Source: a virus
Taxonomy: Duplodnaviria > Heunggongvirae > Uroviricota > Caudoviricetes
Length of the DNA stretch: 36,518 bases
Virus record (IMG/VR): IMGVR_UViG_2534681766_000005
Reading direction: 5' to 3' (one strand)
Position numbers and translations under genes: made by a program. Below, piece after piece: positions 141 to 36,404 of this stretch; position 1 is the first letter of the stretch; the number at the start of each line of letters is the position of its first letter. Under the pieces are notes generated by a model. The model saw only the letters and a list, made by a program, of their open reading frames with translations, searched no databases and was not told the DNA's origin.

Positions 141-1136
141 TTATTTCTTAAGCTTGTACTTAATTAATGAAGTTATGCCTTTTATATACTCACCATGGGC
201 AAACAGATGCTTATATTGTTTCTGCATTTCTGCAACAGTCCGCGCCTCTTTAAGAGGATATTTCTTCCAGGGAGATTGTTCACGCGCGATATTAAAGTAT
301 GATGCAGACGGATATCCAGCCCAGCTATGCCATGGTTTAGTTATCCCTGTATAGTGAATCAATACTGTTTTATCGGTAATGGTTTGCTGAAACTTTCGAT
401 GACTACGATCATGAAGTTCATTTTTCAGGGTATAAATAGTATCAAAATCCTTCCCGAGGTAGATATTATTCATATTAAATGCGATATTCAACGCATCCTG
501 ATCTAAATATTTAAGAGAGCCATATTTAGTTTCCCCTCGTAAAAGCTTGAGTAAATACGGTGTCAAATTTGCTTCATGCCATTTTTTAAGATTGACATAG
601 ATAACGCCTGCATTGAAATAACGTCCATTCATTTCGGGAATGTTGAGGCGTTTTGCACATGCCTCCTGCGTACTATCATTGTCAGGAATGACCGCAGCAA
701 ACTCATCTTTAAATATAATTTCTGTGAGAGGTTTCAGGCTTCCTTTACAAACAACATCGGCATCCAGATACAGCAGTGTGGAAATACTTTCACTCAGATA
801 TTCAAAAGACAATACCCTGAAGTATGTCGCGTACGACCAAAACTGTGACGTCGGCAGATCAGCAAAGTATTTGGGGTCAATTAAATATACAATAATTGAG
901 GTATTAAATTGTTTTGCTGTTTCATTAAATGACTTTAAATAATCATCATCCACATAATCAGTGAAAACATGAAAGACAAAATTAATATCTGAATTATTAA
1001 TCAAAACGGAAGAAATTGAAACGCCAGCACCATACAAAAAATTCTTATCGATACCGTAGGAAACATTTAGCTCTGGGGCGTTTTCTTTTTTATTATCTGC
1101 TAAATACGAAAACCGTTCTTTTATAAATTCATTCAT
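141..1136 (-). CDS. LPS outer-core glycosyltransferase, GT8 family (WaaJ/WaaT/WaaR-like)
   Basis: 331-aa ORF with GT8-like features (LDAD DxD motif, NAGV, HYTG..KPW); AT-rich; sits between the waaO-like gene and waaY. Confidence 0.8.
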   Translation of the reverse strand: MNEFIKERFSYLADNKKENAPELNVSYGIDKNFLYGAGVSISSVLINNSDINFVFHVFTDYVDDDYLKSFNETAKQFNTSIIVYLIDPKYFADLPTSQFWSYATYFRVLSFEYLSESISTLLYLDADVVCKGSLKPLTEIIFKDEFAAVIPDNDSTQEACAKRLNIPEMNGRYFNAGVIYVNLKKWHEANLTPYLLKLLRGETKYGSLKYLDQDALNIAFNMNNIYLGKDFDTIYTLKNELHDRSHRKFQQTITDKTVLIHYTGITKPWHSWAGYPSASYFNIAREQSPWKKYPLKEARTVAEMQKQYKHLFAHGEYIKGITSLIKYKLKK

Positions 1137-1152
1137 TTAACTTTTCTCAATT

Positions 1153-2169
1153 TCATTTTATTATCTTTAAATAAAAATAATAAATATAATTCATTATCCC
1201 GTTAATTGGTTTATTTTGTTTAAAATTATGCTTGGCGCAATAACGAGCATAGTTTGAGTTAACTGGCCGCATTAACGGTTCATTTTTCCAGGGCGATGCC
1301 TCTTTGGCTTTGATAAAAGGTCGCGCACTTGGATAACCGGCCCAGTAATGCCAGGGTTTTGTCGGGCCGACATAATGAATTAATACGGTTTCATCATTAA
1401 TTGGACAAACAAATGATTTTTTTAATTCATAATTTAAACTAAATTGCGTATTGTATTTAGCATCAATGAATTTAACTTTCCCTGACAGGATAAGATTAAG
1501 TATATCTTGATCCATATAGGTTAAACGGGAAACGACGGCTTTATCAGCAAGCATCGACATCGCTTTAGCAGAAACGGACTCCTGCGCCCACGCTAGTGTA
1601 TTAATTAACAGGACACCTGAATTAAAGTAACCCTTTTCAAGTTCATTACACTGCAGACTTTGACCCCGTAACGACCACCAGTTAGCATCGCGTTCAGTAA
1701 CAACAGCAGCAATGTTATTGGCAAGATCCATTGTTATCAGCGGCTTTAAGTTTCCCTGACAGGCGATATCAGCATCCAGGTAAAGAACCTTATCTTGTTG
1801 ATCAATAAAGTAATCTGCAATTACAAAACGGAAATACATGGCAATAGACCAATTTTTGGTCGTCGGTAATGCCTTAAGCCGTTCACAATTTACCAGATGG
1901 ATCTGGATACAGGTACGATAGCTTTTCGCCAATTGGGCTAAACGCTGGATATCGGCTTCAGGGATATCATCAATAAAAACGTGGAAAACAAAACTCACGT
2001 CGTTGTTATGTAACAAAACTGACGTGATTGAAACACCACAACCAAAAAGAAAGTTTTTATCAATGCCATAAGCAACATGGAATGATGATGCCACTGACGC
2101 TGCTGGCCTTTCATCGAAGATGATTGTCTTAGTGATCATCTCTTGTGGATTAAAATAGTGGGCACTCAT
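1153..2169 (-). CDS. LPS outer-core glycosyltransferase, GT8 family (WaaO/WaaI-like)
   Basis: 338-aa ORF, paralogous to the adjacent GT8 gene (LDAD, NSGV, HYVGPTKPW); immediately downstream of waaP. Confidence 0.8.
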   Translation of the reverse strand: MSAHYFNPQEMITKTIIFDERPAASVASSFHVAYGIDKNFLFGCGVSITSVLLHNNDVSFVFHVFIDDIPEADIQRLAQLAKSYRTCIQIHLVNCERLKALPTTKNWSIAMYFRFVIADYFIDQQDKVLYLDADIACQGNLKPLITMDLANNIAAVVTERDANWWSLRGQSLQCNELEKGYFNSGVLLINTLAWAQESVSAKAMSMLADKAVVSRLTYMDQDILNLILSGKVKFIDAKYNTQFSLNYELKKSFVCPINDETVLIHYVGPTKPWHYWAGYPSARPFIKAKEASPWKNEPLMRPVNSNYARYCAKHNFKQNKPINGIMNYIYYFYLKIIK

Positions 2170-2184
2170 ATTTCTCTCCGGAAA

Positions 2185-2982
2185 TTACAACGATTTTCGA
2201 ATCGTTCTTTCCCTGATTTTTGTGGCTTTTGCTTCTGCTTGCGACAGCAGTCCTTGTTCCTGCTTGAGAATGTCTTTAAGCGGGGCGGCAAAATACACTT
2301 TCATAAACCGCCAGATATCCCGCTGAGTCAGGCCGATATTCATCGAAGAAAAATAAAGCCCAATAAGATCTTTATCCCGCCAACGACGTGGAACGCGCGT
2401 GCGAAGCTGCGCCCGGTGCAGGTCAATTACCGAAATTTTTAACTCCTCTTCCTTACCGGAAAAAGGCAAGTGCAGCAGGAAATGACAGATATAACAGTCA
2501 CGGTGGTTAATGCCCGCAGCATGCATATCGCGCACCATCGTCGCGACACGCTTAATAAGCATACGCTTTACGCGAACATCTGGAGGGTTAGTCGCCCAGT
2601 CAGCACAGTAATCTTCCAGACTTATGGTTGGTGTCAGATCTTCGGTAATAATAAACGAGGTTCTGGTCAGCGGATTCATGCCTTTTTCGCCGAATGCCAC
2701 CCCATACATAGTATCAACGCCGACATCCCGCAGTCGATGAATCGCATTCCATTCGCGGTCTGCGCCTAATACTGGCATCCGCAATGAGAGTAAATTTTTG
2801 ATTATCTCTTTCAGGGTCGTGCCGCGATGCCATTTGAGAAAATAGCTTTTGCCCGCCATTTCAAAGCGCAGAGTACGGCGAGTTTCCAGTTCACGAAATA
2901 CCTCACCCTGCAAGGTTTTAACTTCCTCAAAAGGATCTTTGCCGCGCCATAACGTGGCAAACGGCTCTTTAAGTTCAACCAT
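2185..2982 (-). CDS. waaP: LPS core heptose(I) kinase WaaP
   Basis: ORF translation from [21 protein letters not shown] gives 265 aa, kinase-like; ORF track extends to 2991 via an upstream ATG. Confidence 0.9.
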
Positions 2983-4099
2983 CCAGACCACCCGTTATGA
3001 TATCCGCCGCTTTCTCTGGCAGACTGTATAAATCTTGTGTATCAGCATAATGTCGCGCATTTTCCGCCCAGGCCTGGCGCAATGAAGATTGCGTTAACGC
3101 TTTGCGTAAAATCTCATTCAATGTTTCCTGGCGGAATGGCTCAGCAATAGCCTCGCCGCAATTGGCGTCGACAATATAATGCGCATAGCCACAAACGGCT
3201 GTTGTTAGTACCGGTAATCCTGCAGTAATCGCTTCCAGCAGCACAATTCCCGCCGCTTCCTGGTAGGCAGGATGCAGTAATAAATCCGCCGCCGCCATTA
3301 ATTCCGAGACATCATTGCGCCCCGAGAAAAAGTGAACATTACTGCGCACGCCGCGTTTTTCTGCCAGCGCCTCAAATTTTCGCGGTTTATCCTGCCCAAC
3401 AACATATAGCAATGTGTTGTGGCGCAGCGAATCCGGTAACGAAGCAAGTGCTTCAATGGAACGATCGACACCTTTACGCGTGAAGTCTGAACCGACCTGC
3501 AACAATAAATATTGTTGTTCGGTTATTCCATTCTTCTTACGGAAGATTTCACGGCTATTGGCTGGCTGCTGGCTATATTTACGATCAGGATAAATCCCCG
3601 GTGGCAGAATATGAAAACGCTCCGCTTCAGTCTGATAATGTTTCTGGAAATCGGCGATTTGCTTATCTGTCAGCATCAGCAACTGTGTCGGCTTACCCTG
3701 TTCGAAGGTTGCCCGCTCAAAGGCGGCATAATGGCGATAACGTGACGTCAGGCGATAGAAAAAGCCTTTTTCCTGCGCTACTTTCTCGGCATAACAAACA
3801 TCAGCGGCATAATAAACGTCCAGCCCCGGCATTTTGTTGAATCCAACGACTTTATCGACGGGATGTTCGCGTAAATGTTTTTGCACCCAGGCAAAATACT
3901 CCGCATTGCGCCCGTGATTGGTATGCGATTTAACCGGCACTTTGATCAGTTCAAATACATCAGGGCATTCGCCTTCCCACGACTGGGTATAAACCCGAAC
4001 ATGATGACCTCGGGCGGCGACTGTCTGAGCAATACGCATAAAATCACGCTGCAAACCGCCAAAGGGAAAATATTTATATAAACAAAAAGCAACGATCAT
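2975..4099 (-). CDS. waaG: LPS core glucosyltransferase I WaaG (GT4)
   Basis: 374-aa [42 protein letters not shown]...; conserved position between waaQ and waaP. Confidence 0.92.
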
Positions 4100-5154
4100 A
4101 ACGACGTACCTGTCGTGGAGGAGGGCAGTAATTTATCGACAGCAGCAATGACATCTGCCGCCGGAATAACCGAAAGATACATCTCATTTCGGTCACGCTG
4201 ATCGCGCGTTGGCATTTCCCGGTAATCTCCCGCCCAGAATTGAATCATGTTATTTGACCAGGGACGCCAGAAAATATGGTCTGTCGCACCAAACAGCGAT
4301 ATCAGCGGCGTATTAACTGCAGCGGCAATATGCGCCGGTGCGGAATCAACGCCAATAAACAGCTGCGCATGATCGATTAACGCACCAAGTTCCGGGAAGG
4401 TCACCTTTCCAGCCAGCGCCGTTACTGGTGGCGTCTGGCATCCCTGCGCAATTTCATTGACGCAGGCCAGATCGTCTTTATCCGGGCCGGACGTCAGAAC
4501 GACTTCATAACCACGAGCATGTAAGGCATCAATCACAGCGGAAAACTTGGCGTTGTCCCAGCATTTGAAGATTTGCCGCGCCGTAGGTTGGATAACCACA
4601 TAATTTTGTCCAACACCAGCGTGATCAAGTTCGCGACGCATACGTTTCCAGCTTGCAGGCGGGTAACTCATGGTTGTCTGCTTCACCAACGAATCAAGTC
4701 CCAATGGTGTCAGCACGGATAAGTTACTTTCCACCACATTTCCACCCTGCAACGGCACCAAATGGGTGAAACTTTTACGCCAAAAAGCAGACTGCCGATG
4801 ATGATAATCCTGGGAAATTTTCACACGGGCATTTAATAAGCGAACCAGTATAGCAACCATCCATTGATCGGTAAGATTGACGATAAGGTCATACTTATTG
4901 GCACGTAATACCTTGATGAGATGAAAAAAGTTGGCAATTTTTTCTGAGGCTTTTGCTTTTTTATTTTTTATGCCGTAGAGCGCGTTAATCTCTGGATTTT
5001 CAGACAGGATCGGGATGGTGTCCTGATAAAGCAGCACATCGATTTTTGCGTCAGGGTAATTTTTTTTCAGCGAACTAATGACGGGAGTAGTTAATAACAT
5101 ATCCCCATGAAAACGCATCTTAATGAGCAAAATTCTTCGAAATGGCTTATCCAC
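4096..5154 (-). CDS. waaQ: LPS heptosyltransferase III WaaQ (GT9)
   Basis: 352-aa ORF, heptosyltransferase-like, first gene of the operon divergent from waaA; exact start uncertain (alternative Met 12 codons in). Confidence 0.85.
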   Translation of the reverse strand: MDKPFRRILLIKMRFHGDMLLTTPVISSLKKNYPDAKIDVLLYQDTIPILSENPEINALYGIKNKKAKASEKIANFFHLIKVLRANKYDLIVNLTDQWMVAILVRLLNARVKISQDYHHRQSAFWRKSFTHLVPLQGGNVVESNLSVLTPLGLDSLVKQTTMSYPPASWKRMRRELDHAGVGQNYVVIQPTARQIFKCWDNAKFSAVIDALHARGYEVVLTSGPDKDDLACVNEIAQGCQTPPVTALAGKVTFPELGALIDHAQLFIGVDSAPAHIAAAVNTPLISLFGATDHIFWRPWSNNMIQFWAGDYREMPTRDQRDRNEMYLSVIPAADVIAAVDKLLPSSTTGTSL

Positions 5155-5203: not shown

Positions 5204-5215
5204 CACGCTACCGCC
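5204..5215 (-). promoter_or_regulatory. ops element (RfaH-dependent antitermination signal, JUMPstart) in waaQ leader
   Basis: Plus strand cacgctaccgcc = reverse complement GGCGGTAGCGTG on the waaQ-sense strand, in the untranslated leader upstream of waaQ. Confidence 0.8.
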
Positions 5216-5566
5216 CCAGGCTCAACAGCTACCTGAATACTGATACCGCACTGATATTGACGCGCTAGTGTATCACTTCTTTCGCGGCAATCCGACCCGA
5301 ATGATTTTTAAGCACATTGTTGATTTTCAATAAAGAAATCAATCAAATAAAATCATTAGCAACCATATTCTTTCACTGTTGCTCTGCGATTCCTTCCTGC
5401 ACGTACAGCAGAAATCAATGAATCGCATAAAAATACAAAAAAAGTATAGATGTTCAGCAAGAATTGGCGGGTAAATTGCTATTTAAGTCAAAAACGGGAA
5501 AAGTAATGGTAAAGCCACAGCTAAATACATAGAATCCCCAGCACATCCATAAGTCAGCTATTTACT

Positions 5567-9757: not shown

Positions 9758-10978
9758 ATGAGCCTGGCCGGTAAAAAAATCGTTCTCGGCGTTAGCGGCG
9801 GTATTGCTGCCTATAAAACCCCTGAACTGGTGCGTCGTTTGCGCGATCGCGGGGCCGACGTCCGCGTAGCCATGACCGAAGCGGCAAAAGCCTTTATCAC
9901 CCCACTTAGTTTGCAGGCGGTTTCTGGTTATCCCGTTTCCGACAGTCTGCTGGACCCGGCAGCCGAAGCCGCTATGGGCCATATTGAGCTGGGTAAATGG
10001 GCTGATTTAGTGATTCTCGCCCCTGCCACGGCAGATTTGATTGCCCGTGTTGCTGCCGGAATGGCAAATGATCTGGTATCGACGATTTGTCTGGCTACAC
10101 CTGCGCGTGTAGCCGTGCTCCCCGCCATGAACCAGCAGATGTACCGTGCCGCTGCCACGCAGCATAATTTAGAGGTGCTTGCCTCCCGTGGTTTGCTCAT
10201 CTGGGGGCCAGACAGTGGCAGTCAGGCTTGTGGTGATATCGGCCCTGGGCGAATGCTCGATCCGTTAACCATTGTGGATATGGCGGTAGCGCATTTTTCG
10301 CCCGTCAACGACCTGAAACATCTGAACATTATGATTACCGCCGGTCCGACGCGTGAACCGCTCGATCCGGTGCGTTATATCTCTAATCACAGCTCCGGCA
10401 AGATGGGTTTTGCTATCGCTGCCGCCGCTGCCCGTCGTGGCGCGAACGTCACGCTGGTATCAGGTCCAGTTTCACTACCGACACCACCGTTTGTTAAACG
10501 TGTTGATGTGATGACCGCGCTGGAAATGGAAGCCGCCGTGAATGCTTCTGTACAGCAGCAAAATATTTTTATCGGTTGCGCCGCCGTGGCGGATTATCGC
10601 GCAGCTACCGTGGCCCCAGAAAAAATCAAAAAGCAGGCCACGCAGGGTGATGAATTCACAATAAAAATGGTTAAAAACCCCGATATCGTCGCAGGCGTTG
10701 CCGCACTAAAAGGCCATCGACCCTACGTCGTTGGATTTGCCGCCGAAACAAATAATGTGGAAGAATACGCCCGGCAAAAACGTATCCGTAAAAACCTTGA
10801 TCTGATCTGCGCGAACGATGTTTCCCAGCCAACTCAAGGATTTAACAGCGACAACAACGCATTACACCTTTTCTGGCAGGACGGAGATAAAGTCTTACCG
10901 CTTGAGCGCAAAGAGCTCCTTGGCCAATTATTACTCGACGAGATCGTGACCCGTTATGATGAAAAAAATCGACGTTAA
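9758..10978 (+). CDS. coaBC: bifunctional phosphopantothenoylcysteine decarboxylase / phosphopantothenate-cysteine ligase CoaBC (Dfp)
   Basis: From ATG 9758: [43 protein letters not shown]... flavoprotein N-domain plus CoaB C-domain; ORF track start 9686 is an upstream in-frame extension. Confidence 0.93.
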
Positions 10979-11414
10979 GATTCTGGACCCGCGCGTTGGG
11001 AAGGAATTTCCGCTCCCGACTTATGCCACCTCTGGCTCTGCCGGACTTGACCTGCGTGCCTGTCTCGACGACGCCGTAGAACTGGCTCCGGGTGATACTA
11101 CGCTGGTTCCGACCGGGCTGGCGATTCATATTGCCGATCCTTCACTGGCGGCAATGATGCTGCCGCGCTCCGGATTGGGACATAAGCACGGTATCGTGCT
11201 TGGTAACCTGGTAGGATTGATCGATTCCGACTATCAGGGCCAGTTGATGATTTCCGTGTGGAACCGTGGTCAGGACAGCTTCACCATTCAACCTGGCGAA
11301 CGCATCGCCCAGATGATTTTTGTTCCGGTAGTACAGGCTGAATTTAATCTGGTGGAAGATTTCGACGCCACCGACCGCGGTGAAGGCGGCTTTGGTCACT
11401 CTGGTCGTCAGTAA
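10956..11414 (+). CDS. dut: dUTP diphosphatase (dUTPase)
   Basis: 152-aa [40 protein letters not shown]...; overlaps coaBC 3' end. Confidence 0.95.
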
Positions 11415-11446
11415 CACATACGCATCCGAATAACGTCATAACATAG

Positions 11447-11467
11447 CCGCAAACATTTCGTTTGCGG
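11447..11467 (+). other. hairpin in dut-slmA intergenic region (no U-run; function unassigned)
   Basis: ccgcaaac-atttc-gtttgcgg 8-bp inverted repeat. Confidence 0.3.
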
Positions 11468-11520
11468 TCATAGCGTGGGTGCCGCCTGGCAAGTGCTTAT
11501 TTTCAGGGGTATTTTGTAAC

Positions 11521-12117
11521 ATGGCAGAAAAACAAACTGCGAAAAGGAACCGTCGCGAGGAAATACTTCAGTCTCTGGCGCTGATGCTGGAATCCAGCGA
11601 TGGAAGCCAACGTATCACGACGGCAAAACTGGCTGCCTCTGTCGGCGTTTCCGAAGCGGCACTATATCGCCACTTCCCCAGTAAGACCCGCATGTTCGAT
11701 AGCCTGATTGAGTTTATCGAAGATAGCCTGATTACTCGCATCAACCTGATTCTGAAAGATGAGAAAGACACCACAGCGCGCCTGCGTCTGATTGTGTTGC
11801 TGCTTCTCGGTTTTGGTGAGCGTAATCCTGGCCTGACCCGCATCCTTACCGGGCATGCGCTAATGTTTGAACAGGATCGCCTGCAAGGGCGCATCAACCA
11901 GCTGTTCGAGCGTATTGAAGCGCAGCTGCGTCAGGTATTGCGTGAAAAGAGAATGCGTGAGGGTGAAGGTTACACCACCGATGAAACCCTGCTGGCAAGC
12001 CAGATCCTGGCCTTCTGTGAAGGTATGCTGTCACGTTTTGTCCGCAGCGAGTTTAAATACCGCCCGACGGATGATTTTGACGCCCGCTGGCCGCTAATTG
12101 CCGCGCAGTTGCAGTAA
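11521..12117 (+). CDS. slmA: nucleoid occlusion factor SlmA (TetR family)
   Basis: From ATG 11521: [55 protein letters not shown]... HTH TetR-type; 198 aa. Confidence 0.93.
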
Positions 12118-12131
12118 TTCTCCCCTAAACG

Positions 12132-12161
12132 GTCAGGCAGAAACGTCTGCCTGACGCTTTT
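12132..12161. terminator. bidirectional hairpin terminator shared by convergent slmA and retron ret
   Basis: gtcaggcag-aaacgt-ctgcctgac perfect 9-bp stem followed by gctttt on the plus strand; lies between slmA stop (12117) and ret stop (12163). Confidence 0.7.
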
Positions 12162-12162
12162 C

Positions 12163-13122
12163 TTACCATGCAACCAGCATTCGCTTTACACTCTCTCTCG
12201 CCTGTTGAAAGGCCTCATCCTCAGGGTTGATTTGCAATAACCAGTTTATTCTTCCCTGCAAAGCATAAAGATACGCCGTTGCCTGTGCGTGGAGATCGCC
12301 AGAAGGATCAAGTTCACCACGATGACTAAGATGCGAAATAACGCCATATTTTTGGCACAAATGCACCTCCTGACGCAGCGCCCGGCGCGCTTCACGGGCA
12401 AGCTGTGGCTTGTGATTAACAACAATCCCGGTTACTTGCTGGCGCTTACAGGCAGCTATCAGGCAGCCTTTGCGTTTATTGAGGCTCAGGCCCAGCTCCG
12501 CTAACAATCCGCACACTTTATTTTTAACCTGGCGGGCATTGAAGTGACCTGAAAAGGTCATGTCATCGCAGTAGCGGGTGTAGGTAATTCCCCGAGCCTG
12601 ACACCATTCCCCTATGCGTTCATCAAAACGGCGCATCACAAGATTGGAAATGGCTGGCGAAGTTGGTGCCCCCTGCGGTAACGCGTCGTTATAACAACAA
12701 ATCCAGGTCAGCATGGTTACCACATTACGTGGCAACTGGGCCTGGCGAAACACACGCCAGACCTGTAACCAGCTAATGCTATCGAAAAAGTTTTCGATAT
12801 CGAGTTTCAGGATCTGCGGCTGTTGGCAGTGTGGCTGCGCGTTGCTGACGATTGGGCAACCTGGTCGGTAGGCTGTAGCAAAAGGGGAAAGCGGAAATTG
12901 TGAAAGGACGTTCTTAAGAATGTTGCGCTGTACGGTTTTGAGCAAGTAATCAGGGGCTAACACCAGCCGCTGACCACCGTGGCGTTTAGAAAGAATAATG
13001 CGTCGGTAATGGCGTCCGGCATGATTACTGAGCGCATGCAGTCGCTGTATTTCTTTATCGGCGCTCCAGCCCGGCGAGCCGAACAAATCGAGCGCCAGAA
13101 GGGTTGTCCGGGTAGCATCCAT
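12163..13122 (-). CDS. ret: retron-type reverse transcriptase (RT only, 319 aa)
   Basis: ORF with retron RT hallmarks: LDIENFFDSI, QGAPTSPAISNLV, YTRYCDDMTFSG (YxDD), VTGIVVNHK; preceded by an msr/msd-like structured region; ORF track adds 4 codons from a GTG at 13134. Confidence 0.9.
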   Translation of the reverse strand: MDATRTTLLALDLFGSPGWSADKEIQRLHALSNHAGRHYRRIILSKRHGGQRLVLAPDYLLKTVQRNILKNVLSQFPLSPFATAYRPGCPIVSNAQPHCQQPQILKLDIENFFDSISWLQVWRVFRQAQLPRNVVTMLTWICCYNDALPQGAPTSPAISNLVMRRFDERIGEWCQARGITYTRYCDDMTFSGHFNARQVKNKVCGLLAELGLSLNKRKGCLIAACKRQQVTGIVVNHKPQLAREARRALRQEVHLCQKYGVISHLSHRGELDPSGDLHAQATAYLYALQGRINWLLQINPEDEAFQQARESVKRMLVAW

Positions 13123-13154
13123 TCCACTCTCCACATCACGGCGGCCAAAAGAGG

Positions 13155-13348
13155 CGCCAACAGCGGCAATACCATTAAACCATCCCGAAGGCGCGTAACT
13201 GTACTGAGCGCGTCAGCGCGACGTACGCGAAGCGTACTCAGGTACAATGAAGCGACTTTGGGTATATGGACATACTACTGGCGTTAAGTCAGCGACTCGC
13301 CGACCCTCCCGGCACAAAAGGCCGGAAACGCTATTGCCACTGCTGGCG
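13155..13348 (-). ncRNA. msr-msd: retron msr-msd region, bounded by inverted repeats a1 (13333-13348) and a2 (13155-13170)
   Basis: 16-nt inverted repeats (CGCCAGCAGTGGCAAT / ATTGCCGCUGUUGGCG, two G-U wobbles) flank short hairpins (e.g. CCGGC..GCCGG at 13310-13326) and a dyad-rich segment at 13201-13245; directly upstream of ret on the same strand. Confidence 0.65.
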
Positions 13349-13419
13349 AAAGCAGATTAACACGATATCTTGAAGCGCATCACGCTGCGCACAGCAAAAA
13401 CCCTGCACAGCGCATATTT

Positions 13420-14061
13420 TTAAACGCCGAACTCTTCGCGATAGGCCTTAACCGCCGCCAGATGTTCCGCCATTTCCGGCTTCTCTTCCAGGTAAGCAAT
13501 CAGGTCTTTCAGGGTGATGATAGAGATCACTTTGCAGTTGTAATCACGCTCAACTTCCTGAATCGCCGAAATCTCGCCGCGCCCCCGTTCCTGACGATCG
13601 AGCGAAATCAACACGCCAGCAAGCGTCGCGCCATTGGCCTGAATAATTTCCATCGACTCACGAATCGCCGTTCCGGCGGTGATCACATCATCTACCAGCA
13701 TTACGCGTCCTTGTAACGCGCTACCAACCAGATTGCCGCCTTCACCGTGATCTTTTGCTTCTTTGCGGTTAAAGCAGTACGGCAGGGCCAGGGCATGATG
13801 CTCCGCCAGCGCCACGGCGGTTGTGGTGGCAATCGGGATCCCTTTGTAAGCAGGGCCAAACAGCAGATCGAACTCAATGCCGGAATCCACCAACGCTTCA
13901 GCGTAAAAACGGCCTAACAGTGCCAGATCGCGCCCGGTATTAAACAGCCCGGCGTTGAAGAAATAGGGGCTTTTGCGCCCGGACTTCAACGTAAACTCGC
14001 CAAACTTTAACACCTGCTTGCTAAGCGCAAATTCAATAAACTGGCGCTGATATGGTTTCAT
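13420..14061 (-). CDS. pyrE: orotate phosphoribosyltransferase
   Basis: From ATG at 14059-14061: [57 protein letters not shown]... 213 aa. Confidence 0.95.
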
Positions 14062-14092
14062 GCCTTCGCTCCTCATCTTACTTTTCTACAGA

Positions 14093-14120
14093 CAAAAAAA
14101 AGGCGACTCATCAGTCGCCT
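14093..14120 (-). terminator. pyrE attenuator (rho-independent terminator in rph-pyrE intercistronic region)
   Basis: Minus-strand stem AGGCGACU-GAUG-AGUCGCCU followed by a U8 run, between rph stop (14127) and pyrE start (14061). Confidence 0.8.
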
Positions 14121-14126
14121 TAAAAA

Positions 14127-14843
14127 TCAGTTTGCCAGCGCCGCCTTCTGCGTCGCTACAATGGATTCGATTCCCCCTCGGGCCAGCGCCAACAAGGTGA
14201 GTAACTCTTCATGGGTGAACGGCTCGCCTTCTGCCGTCCCCTGCACTTCAATAATGCGCCCGTCTTCGGTCATCACTACGTTCATGTCGGTCTCTGCGGC
14301 TGAGTCTTCAACGTATTCCAGATCGCAAATTGCTTCACCGTTTACAATACCGACAGAAACCGCGGCTACCATCCCTTTCATTGGATTGGTTTTCAGCTTG
14401 CCGTTTTCCACCAGCTTCTGTAGCGCATCTGCCAGCGCCACACAGGCACCCGTAATCGAAGCGGTACGCGTGCCACCATCAGCCTGAAGCACGTCGCAGT
14501 CCAGCGTAATGGTGAACTCACCCAGCGCTTTCAAATCTACTGCCGCGCGAAGTGCACGGGCGATCAGACGCTGGATTTCCATTGTGCGTCCACCCTGCTT
14601 ACCTTTCGCTGCTTCACGAGCGTTACGGGTGTGGGTAGAACGCGGCAGCATACCGTACTCTGCGGTGATCCAGCCCTGGCCCTGACCTTTCAGGAAGCGC
14701 GGCACGCCTTCTTCAATAGAGGCGGTACACAACACTTTGGTATCGCCAAATTCGACCAGCACCGAGCCTTCTGCATGTTTTGTATAGTTACGAGTCAGGG
14801 TAACGGGACGCACCTGATTATTGCTACGGCCTGCTGGACGCAT
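14127..14843 (-). CDS. rph: ribonuclease PH (intact reading frame)
   Basis: From ATG 14841-14843: [45 protein letters not shown]... 238 aa with no frameshift. Confidence 0.95.
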
Positions 14844-16008: not shown

Positions 16009-16053
16009 TTACAGATTTACTTTCTTTGCAATCGATATCACATGGAGTGGGCA

Positions 16054-16656
16054 ATGAACGAACATCATCAACCTTTTGAAGAGATAAAACTGATTAATGC
16101 AAACGGAGCAGAACAATGGTCAGCAAGACAACTTGGGAAACTACTGGGTTATTCAGAGTATCGTCACTTTATACCTGTATTAACGCGCGCCAAAGAGGCC
16201 TGTGAGAACAGTGGTCACACAATTGATGACCATTTCGAGGAGATCCTCGATATGGTCAAAATTGGCTCAAATGCCAAAAGAGCATTAAAAGACATCGTAC
16301 TCTCCCGCTATGCCTGTTACCTGGTAGTACAAAACGGCGACCCCGCGAAACCGGTCATTGCGGCAGGGCAGACTTATTTTGCTATCCAGACCCGACGGCA
16401 GGAGCTTGCTGACGATGAAGCATTTAAGCAACTTCGTGAAGACGAAAAGCGTCTGTTTCTGAGAAATGAGTTGAAAGAACATAACAAACAATTGGTTGAG
16501 GCAGCACAGCAAGCTAATACCACACACTTTGACGTGGGTAGCAAGGTGAGGCAAACCATTCAGGAACTTGGCGGAACCATGCCTGAGGAGTTGCCGACCC
16601 CGCAGGTCAGCATCAAGCAGTTGGAAAACAGTGTAAAAATTACAGAGAAGAAATAG
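16054..16656 (+). CDS. dinD: DNA-damage-inducible protein D
   Basis: ORF MNEHHQPFEEIKLINANGAEQWSARQLGKLLGY... downstream of a LexA box; an in-frame ATG at 16042 is an alternative start; product is about 200 aa. Confidence 0.8.
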   Translation: MNEHHQPFEEIKLINANGAEQWSARQLGKLLGYSEYRHFIPVLTRAKEACENSGHTIDDHFEEILDMVKIGSNAKRALKDIVLSRYACYLVVQNGDPAKPVIAAGQTYFAIQTRRQELADDEAFKQLREDEKRLFLRNELKEHNKQLVEAAQQANTTHFDVGSKVRQTIQELGGTMPEELPTPQVSIKQLENSVKITEKK

Positions 16657-34974: not shown

Positions 34975-35069
34975 GGAAGATCGTCGTCTCCGGTGAGGCG
35001 GCTGGACTTCAAATCCAGTTGGGGCCGCCAGCGGTCCCGGGCAGGTTCGACTCCTGTGATCTTCCGCCA
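34975..35069 (+). tRNA. selC: tRNA-Sec (selenocysteine, UCA anticodon)
   Basis: 95-nt sequence GGAAGATCGTCGTCTCCGGTGAGGCGGCTGGACTTCAAATCCAGTTGGGGCCGCCAGCGGTCCCGGGCAGGTTCGACTCCTGTGATCTTCCGCCA, the canonical E. coli selC product with long variable arm. Confidence 0.97.
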
Positions 35070-35231: not shown

Positions 35232-36404
35232 ATGGCTCTAACCGATATACAGATCAAACGTGCAAAACCACAAGACAAGCCATACACATTGAACGATGGA
35301 CAAGGTCTGTCATTGCTTATCAATCCCGATGGCTCGAAAGGCTGGCGTTTCCGTTTCCGGTTTGCAGGGAAAGCGCGGTTAATGTCATTTGGCAGCTACG
35401 ACTTAGTAAGCCTCGCAGAAGCACGTGAGAAGCGTGATATCGCCCGTAAGCAGGTTGCTAATGGCATTGACCCGGTAGAGGAACGCAAAGCTTTAAGACT
35501 CGCCCAAAAGCTATCAACAGAAAATTCTTTCGAAGCAATATGTCGAGAATGGCATACCAACAAAGCAGACCGCTGGACTGTGGCCTATCGAGAAGAAATC
35601 ATTAAGACATTCGAGCAAGATGTCTTCCCGTTCATTGGTAAACGTCCTATCAGTGAAATCAAACCATTAGAACTGCTTGAAGTATTGCGACGAATAGAGA
35701 AACGAGGAGCACTAGAGAAGACCAGAAAAGTGCGCCAAAGATGCGGTGAGGTCTTTCGTTATGCAATCATAACTGGCCGAGCAGAATATAACCCAGCACC
35801 TGATTTAGCTATCGCTCTGGCCGTTCCTAAGCAAAAACACCACCCATTTTTATCAGCTGAAGAGTTACCTTATTTTATTCGGGATTTGGAAGCATATACC
35901 GGAAGCATCATCACGAAAAATGCGACGAAGATTATGATACTTACTGGTGTAAGGACTCAAGAGATACGCTTTGCAACATGGAGCGAGGTTGACCTTGAGA
36001 AAGGTATTTGGGAAATTCCTGCAGAACGGATGAAGATGCGTAGGCCTCATATTGTTCCTCTTTCTATTCAAGTAATAGAACTCTTTAAGCAGCTCAAGCC
36101 TATCACTGGCCATTACCCATTTATTTTCATTGGCAGGAATAATCGTAGCAAACCAATCTCAAAAGAAAGTGTTTCACAAGTAATTGAGTCGATTGGTTAC
36201 AAAGGACGCGCCACTGGTCATGGGTTCCGACATACCATGTCGACAATACTGCATGAGCAAGGATTTAACAGTGCCTGGATTGAAATGCAATTAGCGCATG
36301 TTGATAAAAATAGTATTCGTGGCACATATAACCATGCATTGTATTTGAAAGGTCGTAAGGAGATGCTATGTTGGTATGCCAACATTTTGTATCCCCTTGT
36401 ATAA
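35232..36404 (+). mobile_element. P4-type tyrosine integrase (390 aa) of a selC-associated genomic island
   Basis: ORF MALTDIQIKRAKPQDKPYTLNDGQGLSLLINPDGSKGWRFRFRFAGKARLMSFGSYDL... with C-terminal catalytic region (GHGFRHTMST..., RGTYNHA); ~160 bp 3' of tRNA-Sec; visibly AT-richer than flanking core genes. Confidence 0.9.

What the first reader, a model, noticed from the sequence alone, without database searches (positions are those of the whole stretch)
12118..13419. Compact retron (msr-msd plus reverse transcriptase) between convergent slmA and pyrE
The ~1.3 kb between the slmA stop (12117) and the pyrE stop (13420) is filled by a minus-strand 319-codon ORF with unmistakable retron-RT motifs (LDIENFFDSI, QGAPTSPAISNLV, YTRYCDDMTF, VTGIVVNHK). 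It is preceded on the same strand by ~300 bp of non-coding, dyad-rich sequence bounded by 16-nt inverted repeats (a1 13333-13348, a2 13155-13170), which is the msr-msd-ret layout that produces multicopy single-stranded DNA. From memory, the position (pyrE/ttk intergenic, replacing a short palindrome), size and RT length match Retron-Ec107 (Eco5), found in only a subset of E. coli. Retrons are now known as anti-phage systems, so this is the clearest accessory or defence candidate in the window.
Basis: partly seen in the sequence, partly recalled or inferred. Interest (0 to 1): 0.85.

Follow-up and report, generated by a model that had tools for sequence, protein, structure and literature searches.

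The report
Known retron Ec107 without effector gene

Summary

- **Insert:** a 1300-bp insert (12119-13418) replaces the 34-bp palindromic terminator that 93% of complete E. coli genomes carry between slmA and pyrE.
- **Reverse transcriptase:** the minus strand encodes a 319-aa RT. It matches PADLOC RT_Ec107-like at 7e-132 and has the same sequence as a protein in UniRef cluster Q05804_ECOLX. It carries the NAxxH, YCDD and VTG motifs.
- **Non-coding RNA:** the RT is preceded by msr-msd, closed by a 17-bp a1/a2 stem, with an invariant ATAG whose G (13331) is the predicted branch point. Across 15 lineages, 23 of 59 pairs show compensatory changes, against 9.9±2.1 in shuffles.
- **Distribution:** 382 of 5426 complete E. 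coli genomes carry it, always as one chromosomal copy at this site.

The "defence" reading is not supported. There is no effector gene here or in any relative I examined, and Millman et al. left Ec107 out of their phage tests.

Relatives with 68-86% identical RTs sit in the same pyrE-slmA gap in other enteric lineages. Leminorella and Pragia copies sit between other convergent genes. The wider YCDD clade, mostly gut Clostridia, shares no neighbouring gene. The RT is under purifying selection.

Verdict: already known. Interest is low to moderate and rests on the open question of what an effector-less retron does.

The parts
12119..13418 (-). Whole Retron-Ec107 insert, 1300 bp. It replaces the 34-bp palindromic spacer ATGACGCCGGATGACTTTTCATCCGGCGAGTTTC of the empty site.
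   Evidence: Comparison with the K-12-like empty site L001. One T is shared on each side. No target-site duplication is visible.
12163..13122 (-). ret: retron reverse transcriptase, 319 aa. Motifs: NAQPH (region X), YCDD catalytic box, VTG (region Y).
   Evidence: Pfam RVT_1 3.5e-21. PADLOC RT_Ec107-like 7.3e-132. Same sequence as a member of UniRef cluster Q05804_ECOLX. Motif residues are invariant in 19 homologues. Closest solved structure is the Ec86 RT, 4e-40.
12132..12155 (.). 10-bp GC-rich hairpin between the slmA stop and the ret stop. It is brought in by the insert and takes the place of the lost bidirectional terminator.
   Evidence: Terminator scan on the + strand, followed by GCTTTTCTT. 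Folds at -18.4 kcal/mol (+ strand) and -19.8 kcal/mol (- strand), z = -4.9 and -4.2.
13332..13348 (-). a1: 5' arm of the stem that closes msr-msd.
   Evidence: 8 of its 17 pairs show compensatory changes.
13331..13331 (-). Predicted branching guanosine. Its 2'-OH would prime cDNA synthesis. It is the G of the invariant ATAG just 3' of a1.
   Evidence: Unpaired G at the end of the a1/a2 stem in the MFE fold. A17-T18-A19-G20 is invariant in 15 lineages. The branch itself is inferred, not shown here.
13274..13348 (-). msr, the RNA part of msDNA. It holds a1, the branch G and two hairpins (13305-13324 and 13283-13303). The 3' end is approximate.
   Evidence: Alifold and pair counts: 4 compensatory pairs in each of helices 3 and 4. 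A covariance model built from the 13278-13338 core scores 79.7 bits on the window and finds 10 more hits 60-300 nt (mostly 200-300 nt) upstream of distant RTs.
13172..13278 (-). msd: template for the 107-nt single-stranded DNA. The predicted msDNA is the + strand sequence 13172-13278.
   Evidence: Copying would start at the first base 5' of a2 and run 107 nt, the length given by the retron's name. As DNA it folds into a long imperfect hairpin, -22.9 kcal/mol, z = -3.5. The stems are conserved or covary. The end points are inferred.
13155..13171 (-). a2: 3' arm of the closing stem.
13354..13362 (-). Candidate extended -10 promoter TGTTAATCT, 5 nt upstream of a1.
   Evidence: A TGnTAnnnT element is kept at the same distance in all the pyrE-slmA and cyaY-cyaA lineages of the alignment, but not clearly in Pragia L102. 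The simple sigma-70 scan did not call it. Inferred.
13382..13413 (-). Hairpin just after the pyrE stop, inside the insert. Probably the pyrE terminator or an attenuator ahead of the retron promoter.
   Evidence: -22.8 kcal/mol, z = -3.5. A hairpin with a different sequence sits at the same place in Pseudocitrobacter and other lineages.

Best explanation
This is Retron-Ec107 (Retron-Eco5), a stand-alone msr-msd-ret cassette.

**How it most likely works.** Steps 1-4 are the established retron mechanism applied to this sequence. They were not observed here.
1. A transcript starts a few bases upstream of 13348, probably from a weak extended -10 promoter, and runs through msr, msd and ret.
2. The 17-bp a1/a2 stem (13332-13348 with 13155-13171) brings the branch G (13331) next to the first template base (13172).
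3. The 319-aa RT, with a YCDD active site, recognises the msr hairpins. It primes from the 2'-OH of that G and copies msd up to about 13278.
4. Host RNase H removes the copied template. This leaves a 107-nt hairpin DNA joined 2'-5' to about 75 nt of RNA: msDNA-Ec107.

**What sets it apart.** Unlike nearly all other retrons, it carries no effector or toxin gene. My commitment is that the RT-msDNA complex is a functional, selected module that acts with host factors encoded elsewhere. That could be a partner protein in trans, or a role in stationary-phase or starvation physiology. It is not a self-contained abortive-infection system. It is also not mobile on its own. It is inherited at fixed gaps between convergent core genes and lost repeatedly.
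For: **Identity**
- PADLOC RT_Ec107-like 7.3e-132 over the full length.
- Same sequence as a member of UniRef cluster Q05804_ECOLX.
- The 1300-bp insert replaces a 34-bp palindrome between pyrE and slmA, as published for Ec107 (PMC6868368).
- YCDD box (PMC6868368).

**Anatomy**
- The a1/a2 stem with an unpaired G at its end.
- Invariant ATAG.
- 23 of 59 pairs compensatory, 0 of 500 shuffles reach that number.
- The predicted msd DNA folds as a hairpin.

**Selection**
- RT dN/dS is 0.13 against Escherichia sp. L013. It is about 0.05-0.09 against more distant lineages, where dS is saturated.

**No effector**
- Only one conserved ORF lies in the insert.
- All enteric relatives are RT-only.
- No neighbour family occurs in more than 6 of 80 loci.
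- Downstream genes on the same strand are unrelated housekeeping genes, and none matches a defence effector.
- Mestre 2020 reached the same conclusion for this branch (PMC7736814).

**Not mobile**
- One chromosomal copy at one site in 382 genomes.
- No close copy on plasmids or phages; the listed best hits are 38% and 42% identical.
- The msr motif is absent from viral contigs.

**From the literature**
- Expression rises on phosphate starvation and on entry to stationary phase. RNase H affects msDNA length (PMC6868368 and PMC8989520, citing Herzer 1996 and Shimamoto 1995).
Against: - msDNA production, the branch position and the ends of the RNA and DNA are not measured here. The figures 'G is residue 18 of a 75-nt RNA' come from my memory of Herzer 1992, which I could not open.
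- The promoter is weak, and the consensus scan did not find it.
- Rfam has no family that matches this msr.
- The functional commitment (a partner in trans or a physiological role) is inference from absence. No phage test of Ec107 appears in the papers I could search.
- RT dS is about twice that of the flanking genes. Strict vertical descent is therefore not proven. Import by homologous recombination through the conserved flanks fits equally well.
Confidence: 0.93

Rival explanations
1. A complete anti-phage retron whose effector is encoded elsewhere in the genome (in trans). Alternatively, the RT-msDNA complex is itself the effector.
For: - Most characterised retrons are abortive-infection systems (Millman 2020 preprint; PMC7736814).
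- The RT and the ncRNA are under clear constraint, so some function is selected.
- The element is an accessory trait, present in 7% of E. coli genomes.
Against: - No effector lies in cis in any of about 95 loci.
- Mestre 2020 reports that most hosts of these orphan retrons lack homologues of known retron effectors (PMC7736814).
- The element is not in a defence island or on a mobile element.
- Ec107 was left out of the Millman phage panel.
Confidence: 0.25
2. The neighbouring pyrE (orotate phosphoribosyltransferase) serves as the retron's PRTase effector, by analogy with type III retrons.
For: - The second-best PADLOC profiles are RT_III-A (313 bits).
- pyrE, msr-msd and ret lie on the same strand, and this order is kept in several genera.
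Against: - pyrE is a core gene, found next to slmA in 5425 of 5426 genomes with or without the retron.
- A hairpin separates it from the retron.
- Leminorella and Pragia relatives sit next to cyaY and a cdaR-like gene instead.
- No PRTase turned up among the downstream same-strand neighbours of the Clostridia relatives.
- Mestre 2020 also judged a functional link unlikely.
Confidence: 0.03
3. A decaying, functionless remnant of a retron that lost its effector.
For: - No effector gene.
- Patchy distribution with many empty sites.
- Mestre 2020 suggests the branch lost its associated protein.
Against: - The listed copies are all annotated with an RT gene, and all five sequences I read have an intact 319-aa ORF.
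- dN/dS is 0.05-0.13.
- Catalytic and retron-specific motifs are invariant across 19 homologues down to 47% identity.
- The ncRNA shows compensatory changes.
- Ec107 yielded some precise editing in a retron editing system in human cells (bioRxiv 10.1101/2021.05.11.443596).
Confidence: 0.05
4. Not a retron: a group II intron, DGR or defence-associated (DRT/Abi) reverse transcriptase.
For: All of these share the RVT_1 domain.
Against: - The top 25 PADLOC matches are all retron RT profiles.
- NCBIfam gives retron_St85_RT 230.7 bits, group II RT/maturase 61.9 bits (cut-off 300) and Drt2 56.8 bits (cut-off 390).
- The 14 best PDB matches are retron RTs.
- Rfam finds no group II intron RNA.
- NAxxH and VTG motifs are present.
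- The upstream RNA has retron architecture.
Confidence: 0.01

Closest known systems
Retron-Ec107 / Retron-Eco5 (Herzer, Inouye & Inouye 1992, Mol Microbiol 6:345; reviewed in PMC6868368 and PMC7736814)
   Same: - The chromosomal site (pyrE-slmA/ttk) and the 34-bp palindrome replaced by about 1.3 kb.
- The YCDD box.
- The absence of any accessory ORF.
- The RT matches the Ec107-like profile over its full length, and its sequence is on record in UniRef cluster Q05804_ECOLX.
- The RT is 319 aa, the length I recall (from memory only) for the published Ec107 RT.
   Different: No difference detected. I could not align directly against the 1992 nucleotide record. Other E. coli lineages carry alleles 94-98.5% identical, for example EPEC E2348/69.
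Type III-A retrons (PRTase-like effector with or without a winged-helix protein; for example Retron-Eco11, PMC12746101)
   Same: Nearest classified RT relatives (PADLOC RT_III-A, 313 bits). Same msr-msd-RT core.
   Different: Type III systems carry a dedicated PRTase-like effector, and Eco11 is shown to defend against phage. This element and its whole clade carry none.
Retron-Eco1 (Ec86), the structurally and mechanistically best known retron (PDB 7V9U, 7XJG, 8QBK)
   Same: An RT of about 320 aa and the closest solved structure (E = 4e-40). It has the a1/a2 stem, priming from a branching G, and a hairpin msDNA.
   Different: Ec86 is type II-A, with an NDT-like toxin that the msDNA holds in check, and it lies in a prophage-like region. 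Ec107 has YCDD instead of YADD, no toxin, and a core-genome site.

Membership tests
Retron (msr-msd-RT retroelement) | RT belongs to the retron clade and has the retron-specific region X (NAxxH) and region Y (VTG) | tested here: met
   NAQPH at residues 94-98 and VTG at 230-232, invariant in 19 homologues. All top PADLOC, PDB and NCBIfam matches are retron RTs.
Retron (msr-msd-RT retroelement) | A structured ncRNA lies immediately upstream on the same strand, closed by the inverted repeats a1/a2 | tested here: met
   17-bp stem, 13332-13348 with 13155-13171. Fold z = -6.0. Helix 1 is 96.5% paired, with 8 compensatory pairs.
Retron (msr-msd-RT retroelement) | A conserved branching G just 3' of a1 | tested here: met
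   The G at 13331 sits in an ATAG that is invariant across 15 lineages. This is sequence evidence only.
Retron (msr-msd-RT retroelement) | Production of 2'-5' branched multicopy single-stranded DNA | not testable with these tools
   Reported for Ec107 in the literature cited by PMC6868368 and PMC8989520. It needs msDNA extraction from this strain.
Retron-Ec107 / Eco5 specifically | Lies between pyrE and slmA (ttk), replacing a 34-bp palindromic spacer with about 1.3 kb | tested here: met
   1300 bp replace ATGACGCCGGATGACTTTTCATCCGGCGAGTTTC. The published description is in PMC6868368.
Retron-Ec107 / Eco5 specifically | RT with a YCDD box, matching the Ec107 RT sequence (I recall 319 aa for the published protein; PMC6868368 gives the YCDD box) | tested here: met
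   319 codons. YCDD at residues 184-187. RT_Ec107-like 437 bits, covering positions 3-307 of the 307-position profile. Sequence on record in UniRef cluster Q05804_ECOLX. A direct alignment to the 1992 record was not possible.
Tripartite retron defence system (Mestre types I-XIII) | A conserved accessory (effector) gene or a fused effector domain | tested here: not met
   No second conserved ORF in the insert. The RT has no extra domain. No shared neighbour in 80 relatives. This agrees with the 'orphan' branch of clade 2 in PMC7736814.
Tripartite retron defence system (Mestre types I-XIII) | Demonstrated protection against phage | not testable with these tools
   Ec107 was left out of the Millman 2020 phage panel. 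The papers I could search hold no phage test of it.
Group II intron / DGR / DRT reverse transcriptases | Maturase or endonuclease domains with intron RNA; TR/VR repeats; or a family-level match to DRT models | tested here: not met
   Group II RT/maturase 61.9 bits against a cut-off of 300. Drt2 56.8 against 390. No Rfam intron hit. TR/VR repeats were not searched for.

The most novel reading that the evidence does not exclude
Ec107 may represent a large clade of retrons that have no effector at all. This is the YCDD clade: enterics plus hundreds of gut Clostridia. These retrons are kept by selection at fixed gaps between convergent core genes, at the same pyrE-slmA site in several enteric lineages. 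Their msDNA sequence is unusually conserved. That points to a host-integrated role, such as stationary-phase or starvation physiology, or sensing through a host protein in trans. It does not look like a self-contained abortive-infection system. The clade's orphan status is published. The shared site across genera, the placement between convergent genes and the size of the Clostridia branch are, as far as the papers I could read show, only partly described.
Probability: 0.4. Interest if true: 0.6.

Novelty: already known. Interest (0 to 1): 0.3.

Why it matters
As an identification it adds nothing new. Retron-Ec107 was sequenced, mapped to this exact site and shown to make msDNA in 1992, and it has since been used as an editing and antisense tool.

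Its remaining value is as a natural test case for a real open question: what a retron does when it has no toxin. The element is only 1.3 kb, sits at a defined site with a natural empty allele, and occurs in well-studied strains such as EPEC E2348/69. Knock-in and knock-out comparisons would therefore be easy. The conserved site across genera and the strongly conserved msd give concrete handles for finding a host partner.

Tried and rejected
- **Rfam:** permissive scan of 11900-13700 gave no msr family hit. This means Rfam has no model for this msr type, not that the RNA is absent.
- **Original papers:** Herzer 1996 and Shimamoto 1995 are not held. No supplements are held for Mestre 2020. Searches for Q05804 and msDNA-Ec107 gave nothing usable. 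So the exact published RNA and DNA ends could not be checked.
- **Metagenome scan:** a non-E. coli msr pattern gave 1 hit. The viral contig scan gave 0. I used exact-protein contig look-ups instead.
- **Hidden effector ORF in the insert:** the overlapping ORFs of 96 and 102 aa in the window are not kept in position or frame in 8 other lineages. Rejected.
- **Cis effector in relatives:** neighbour clustering of 80 loci found no family in more than 6 loci, and the largest looks like an integrase family, judged from one annotated member. Pfam and PADLOC scans of 34 downstream same-strand genes gave unrelated housekeeping genes. Rejected.
- **pyrE as effector:** rejected on gene context.
- **Plasmid or phage carriage:** only distant retron RTs, all below 60% identity.
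- **Strict vertical descent:** not settled. RT dS exceeds that of the flanks.
- **Literature search for effector-less or orphan retrons since 2021:** no papers found.
Full report
**1. The observation**

The interval between the slmA stop (12117) and the pyrE stop codon (13420-13422, minus strand) holds one long ORF on the minus strand, 12163-13134 from a GTG. The likely start is the ATG at 13122, which gives 319 codons. It follows a GGAGAG that is kept in relatives.

The 297 nt upstream of the ORF hold the strongest inverted repeat of the interval, 13155-13176 with 13327-13348. As RNA, the minus strand 13150-13352 folds at -93.6 kcal/mol, against -68±4.3 for dinucleotide shuffles (z = -6.0, 0 of 200 as good). 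The fold has a 17-bp closing stem (13332-13348 with 13155-13171, including two G-U pairs) and an unpaired G at 13331 directly at its end.

**2. What it is**

- **RT family.** The protein has an RVT_1 domain (3.5e-21). It matches the PADLOC profile RT_Ec107-like from end to end (7.3e-132, 437 bits). The next best are RT_III-A profiles (313 bits), and all 25 listed matches are retron RTs.
- **Other RT families excluded.** NCBIfam gives retron_St85_RT 230.7 bits, just under its 235 cut-off. That explains the generic RefSeq name 'reverse transcriptase family protein'. Group II RT/maturase scores 61.9 bits (cut-off 300) and Drt2 56.8 bits (cut-off 390). The 14 best PDB matches are retron RTs, led by Ec86 at 4e-40. 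No structure of the Ec107 RT exists.
- **Motifs.** The retron-specific NAxxH and VTG motifs and the unusual YCDD box are invariant in 19 homologues down to 47% identity. Simon et al. name YCDD as the peculiarity of RT-Eco5 (PMC6868368).
- **Database identity.** The window protein is on record with the name of UniRef cluster Q05804_ECOLX. My recollection is that Q05804 is the 1992 Ec107 entry, but I could not verify that.

**3. The insertion**

A K-12-like genome has 36 bp between slmA and pyrE. Comparison shows that 34 bp, ATGACGCCGGATGACTTTTCATCCGGCGAGTTTC, a palindromic terminator, are replaced by 1300 bp (12119-13418). No target duplication is visible. This is exactly what is published for Retron-Ec107: it 'replaces a palindromic 34 bp in an intergenic region' with no sign of a mobile element (PMC6868368), next to orotate phosphoribosyltransferase (PMC7736814).

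The insert brings its own hairpins at both ends:
- 12132-12155, between slmA and ret;
- 13382-13413, just after pyrE.

**4. Distribution in E. coli**

- 382 of 5426 complete genomes (7.0%) carry the element, always as one copy, on the chromosome, at this site.
- By identity to the window: 271 genomes at 99% or more, 107 at 95-99%, and 4 at 90-95%. EPEC E2348/69 is in the last class.
- The 27 low-coverage rows listed from the spread sample match only the two flanks, about 35 bp apart.
- The same 90%-identity protein cluster also holds copies from E. fergusonii and from unclassified Escherichia.

**5. The ncRNA**

I collected the upstream regions of 15 distinct lineages: four Escherichia alleles, Pseudocitrobacter, Leminorella, Pragia and unnamed metagenome contigs.

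- **Alignment.** They align over the whole msr-msd at 78% mean column identity, with an invariant ATAG at the branch position.
- **Consensus fold.** RNAalifold recovers the a1/a2 stem, two msr hairpins and a branched msd hairpin.
- **Pair counts.** 96.7% of cells are paired. 23 of 59 pairs have changes on both sides, against 9.9±2.1 in shuffles (0 of 500) and at most 8 when partners are slid by 1-3 columns. The structure was derived from these same sequences, which inflates the paired percentage, but the count of compensatory pairs is robust.
- **Reach.** A covariance model of the msr core finds 10 further matches on the RT strand. They lie 60-300 nt, mostly 200-300 nt, upstream of the RT match in Clostridia loci. 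One hit was off-target. Rfam has no matching family.

**6. Predicted product**

By the standard retron mechanism, cDNA synthesis starts opposite 13172 and runs 107 nt, the length given by the retron's name, to 13278. That DNA (+ strand 13172-13278) folds as a long imperfect hairpin at -22.9 kcal/mol, z = -3.5.

If the RNA starts at 13348, the branch G is residue 18, and a 75-nt RNA would end at 13274. That leaves a 5-bp RNA-DNA hybrid at the 3' ends. These two numbers fit my memory of Herzer 1992, but I could not check them.

**7. Function: no effector**

- **In the insert.** It has no second ORF that is kept in other lineages.
- **Relatives at the same site.** Every relative with 68-86% RT identity sits in the same pyrE to slmA gap with nothing else there. 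These come from Escherichia sp. MOD1-EC7003, Pseudocitrobacter and unnamed enteric contigs. L099 shows only a probable slmA fragment downstream.
- **Relatives at other sites.** The 59-63% group (Leminorella and allied contigs) sits between cyaY and cyaA. Pragia (53%) sits between a cdaR-like and a garD-like gene.
- **Common pattern.** In all these cases the retron runs in the same direction as the upstream gene and faces a convergent gene. In Pseudocitrobacter and Leminorella the two stop regions overlap by 4 nt.
- **Wider clade.** A scan of species-representative genomes found at least 595 relatives with the YTRYCDD motif, mostly gut Clostridia at 38-50% identity. Among the best 80 loci, no neighbouring protein family occurs in more than 6 loci. 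The 34 downstream genes on the same strand are unrelated housekeeping genes with no defence-effector match.
[quoted passage not shown] Millman et al. left Ec107 out of their phage tests.
- **pyrE as effector.** The idea is attractive because the sister clade uses PRTase-like effectors. The non-pyrE contexts and the universal presence of pyrE contradict it.

**8. Is it alive?**

RT dN/dS is 0.13 against the 86% relative. It is about 0.05-0.09 against the 70% relatives, where dS is saturated. Together with the invariant motifs and the ncRNA covariation, this rules out a decaying relic.

RT divergence rises with host divergence, but RT dS is about twice that of the flanking genes. Against Escherichia sp. 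L013, pyrE and slmA (dS 0.24) are more diverged than rph (0.14) and dut (0.095). This fits either an old insertion with many losses or transfer by recombination through the flanks. I cannot separate the two.

No close copy is on plasmids or phages; the listed best hits are 38% and 42% identical.

**9. Verdict**

The finding is a correct recognition of a retron that has been known and characterised since 1992. Novelty: already known. The defence label does not follow for this particular retron.

The only open matter is the biological role of an effector-less retron clade. For that question, the shared site across genera, the placement between convergent genes and the strongly conserved msd are useful but modest additions.

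Noticed in passing
window 34975-35065 and 35232-36404: A tRNA-Sec gene (selC, 83.8 bits) is followed 166 bp later by a 390-aa P4-type tyrosine integrase (Arm-DNA-bind_3, Phage_int_M and Phage_integrase domains). This looks like the start of a genomic island inserted at selC, running off the window's end.
   Followed up: partly
window 5204-5242 (- strand): A JUMPstart RNA element (55.2 bits) lies upstream of a run of five minus-strand ORFs (141-5154). I take these to be the LPS core (waa) operon from the gene order, but I did not test that.
   Followed up: no
window 16042-16656 (+ strand): A 204-aa ORF with a Bro-N domain (5.5e-8) sits among housekeeping genes, between the yicC-like gene and a Gly_transporter-family gene.
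   Followed up: no
L006, L010, L013, L016, L097, L098 (pyrE-slmA gap); L011, L012, L017, L100, L101 (cyaY-cyaA gap); L102 (cdaR-like / garD-like gap): Ec107-like retrons always sit between convergent core genes and run in the same direction as the upstream gene. The same pyrE-slmA site is used in several enteric lineages. In Pseudocitrobacter and Leminorella the RT stop region overlaps the end of the facing gene by 4 nt.
   Followed up: partly
window 10955-14843 compared with L013: Synonymous divergence rises towards the retron. dS is 0.095 for dut and 0.14 for rph, but 0.24 for the two genes that touch the insert (slmA and pyrE) and 0.54 for the RT. This could mark an old haplotype or a recombination tract.
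   Followed up: partly
L012 6969-9529 and L101 3407-5972: The adenylate cyclase gene cyaA that faces the retron is called as three separate ORFs in one Leminorella grimontii assembly and in the L. richardii contig. It is intact (852 aa) in another L. grimontii assembly. This could be assembly frameshifts or pseudogenisation.
   Followed up: no
L018-L095: RTs with the YTRYCDD motif are far more numerous in gut Clostridia (Lachnospiraceae, Oscillospiraceae) than in Proteobacteria among species-representative genomes. Mestre 2020 described clade 2 as mostly gammaproteobacterial.
   Followed up: partly
L013 139-3102, L014 491-1750: In Escherichia sp. contigs that carry the 86% retron allele, a P4-type integrase lies just beyond yicC; in L013 an AlpA-like gene lies next to it. 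An island therefore sits about 2 kb from the retron locus. This window has none at that position.
   Followed up: no
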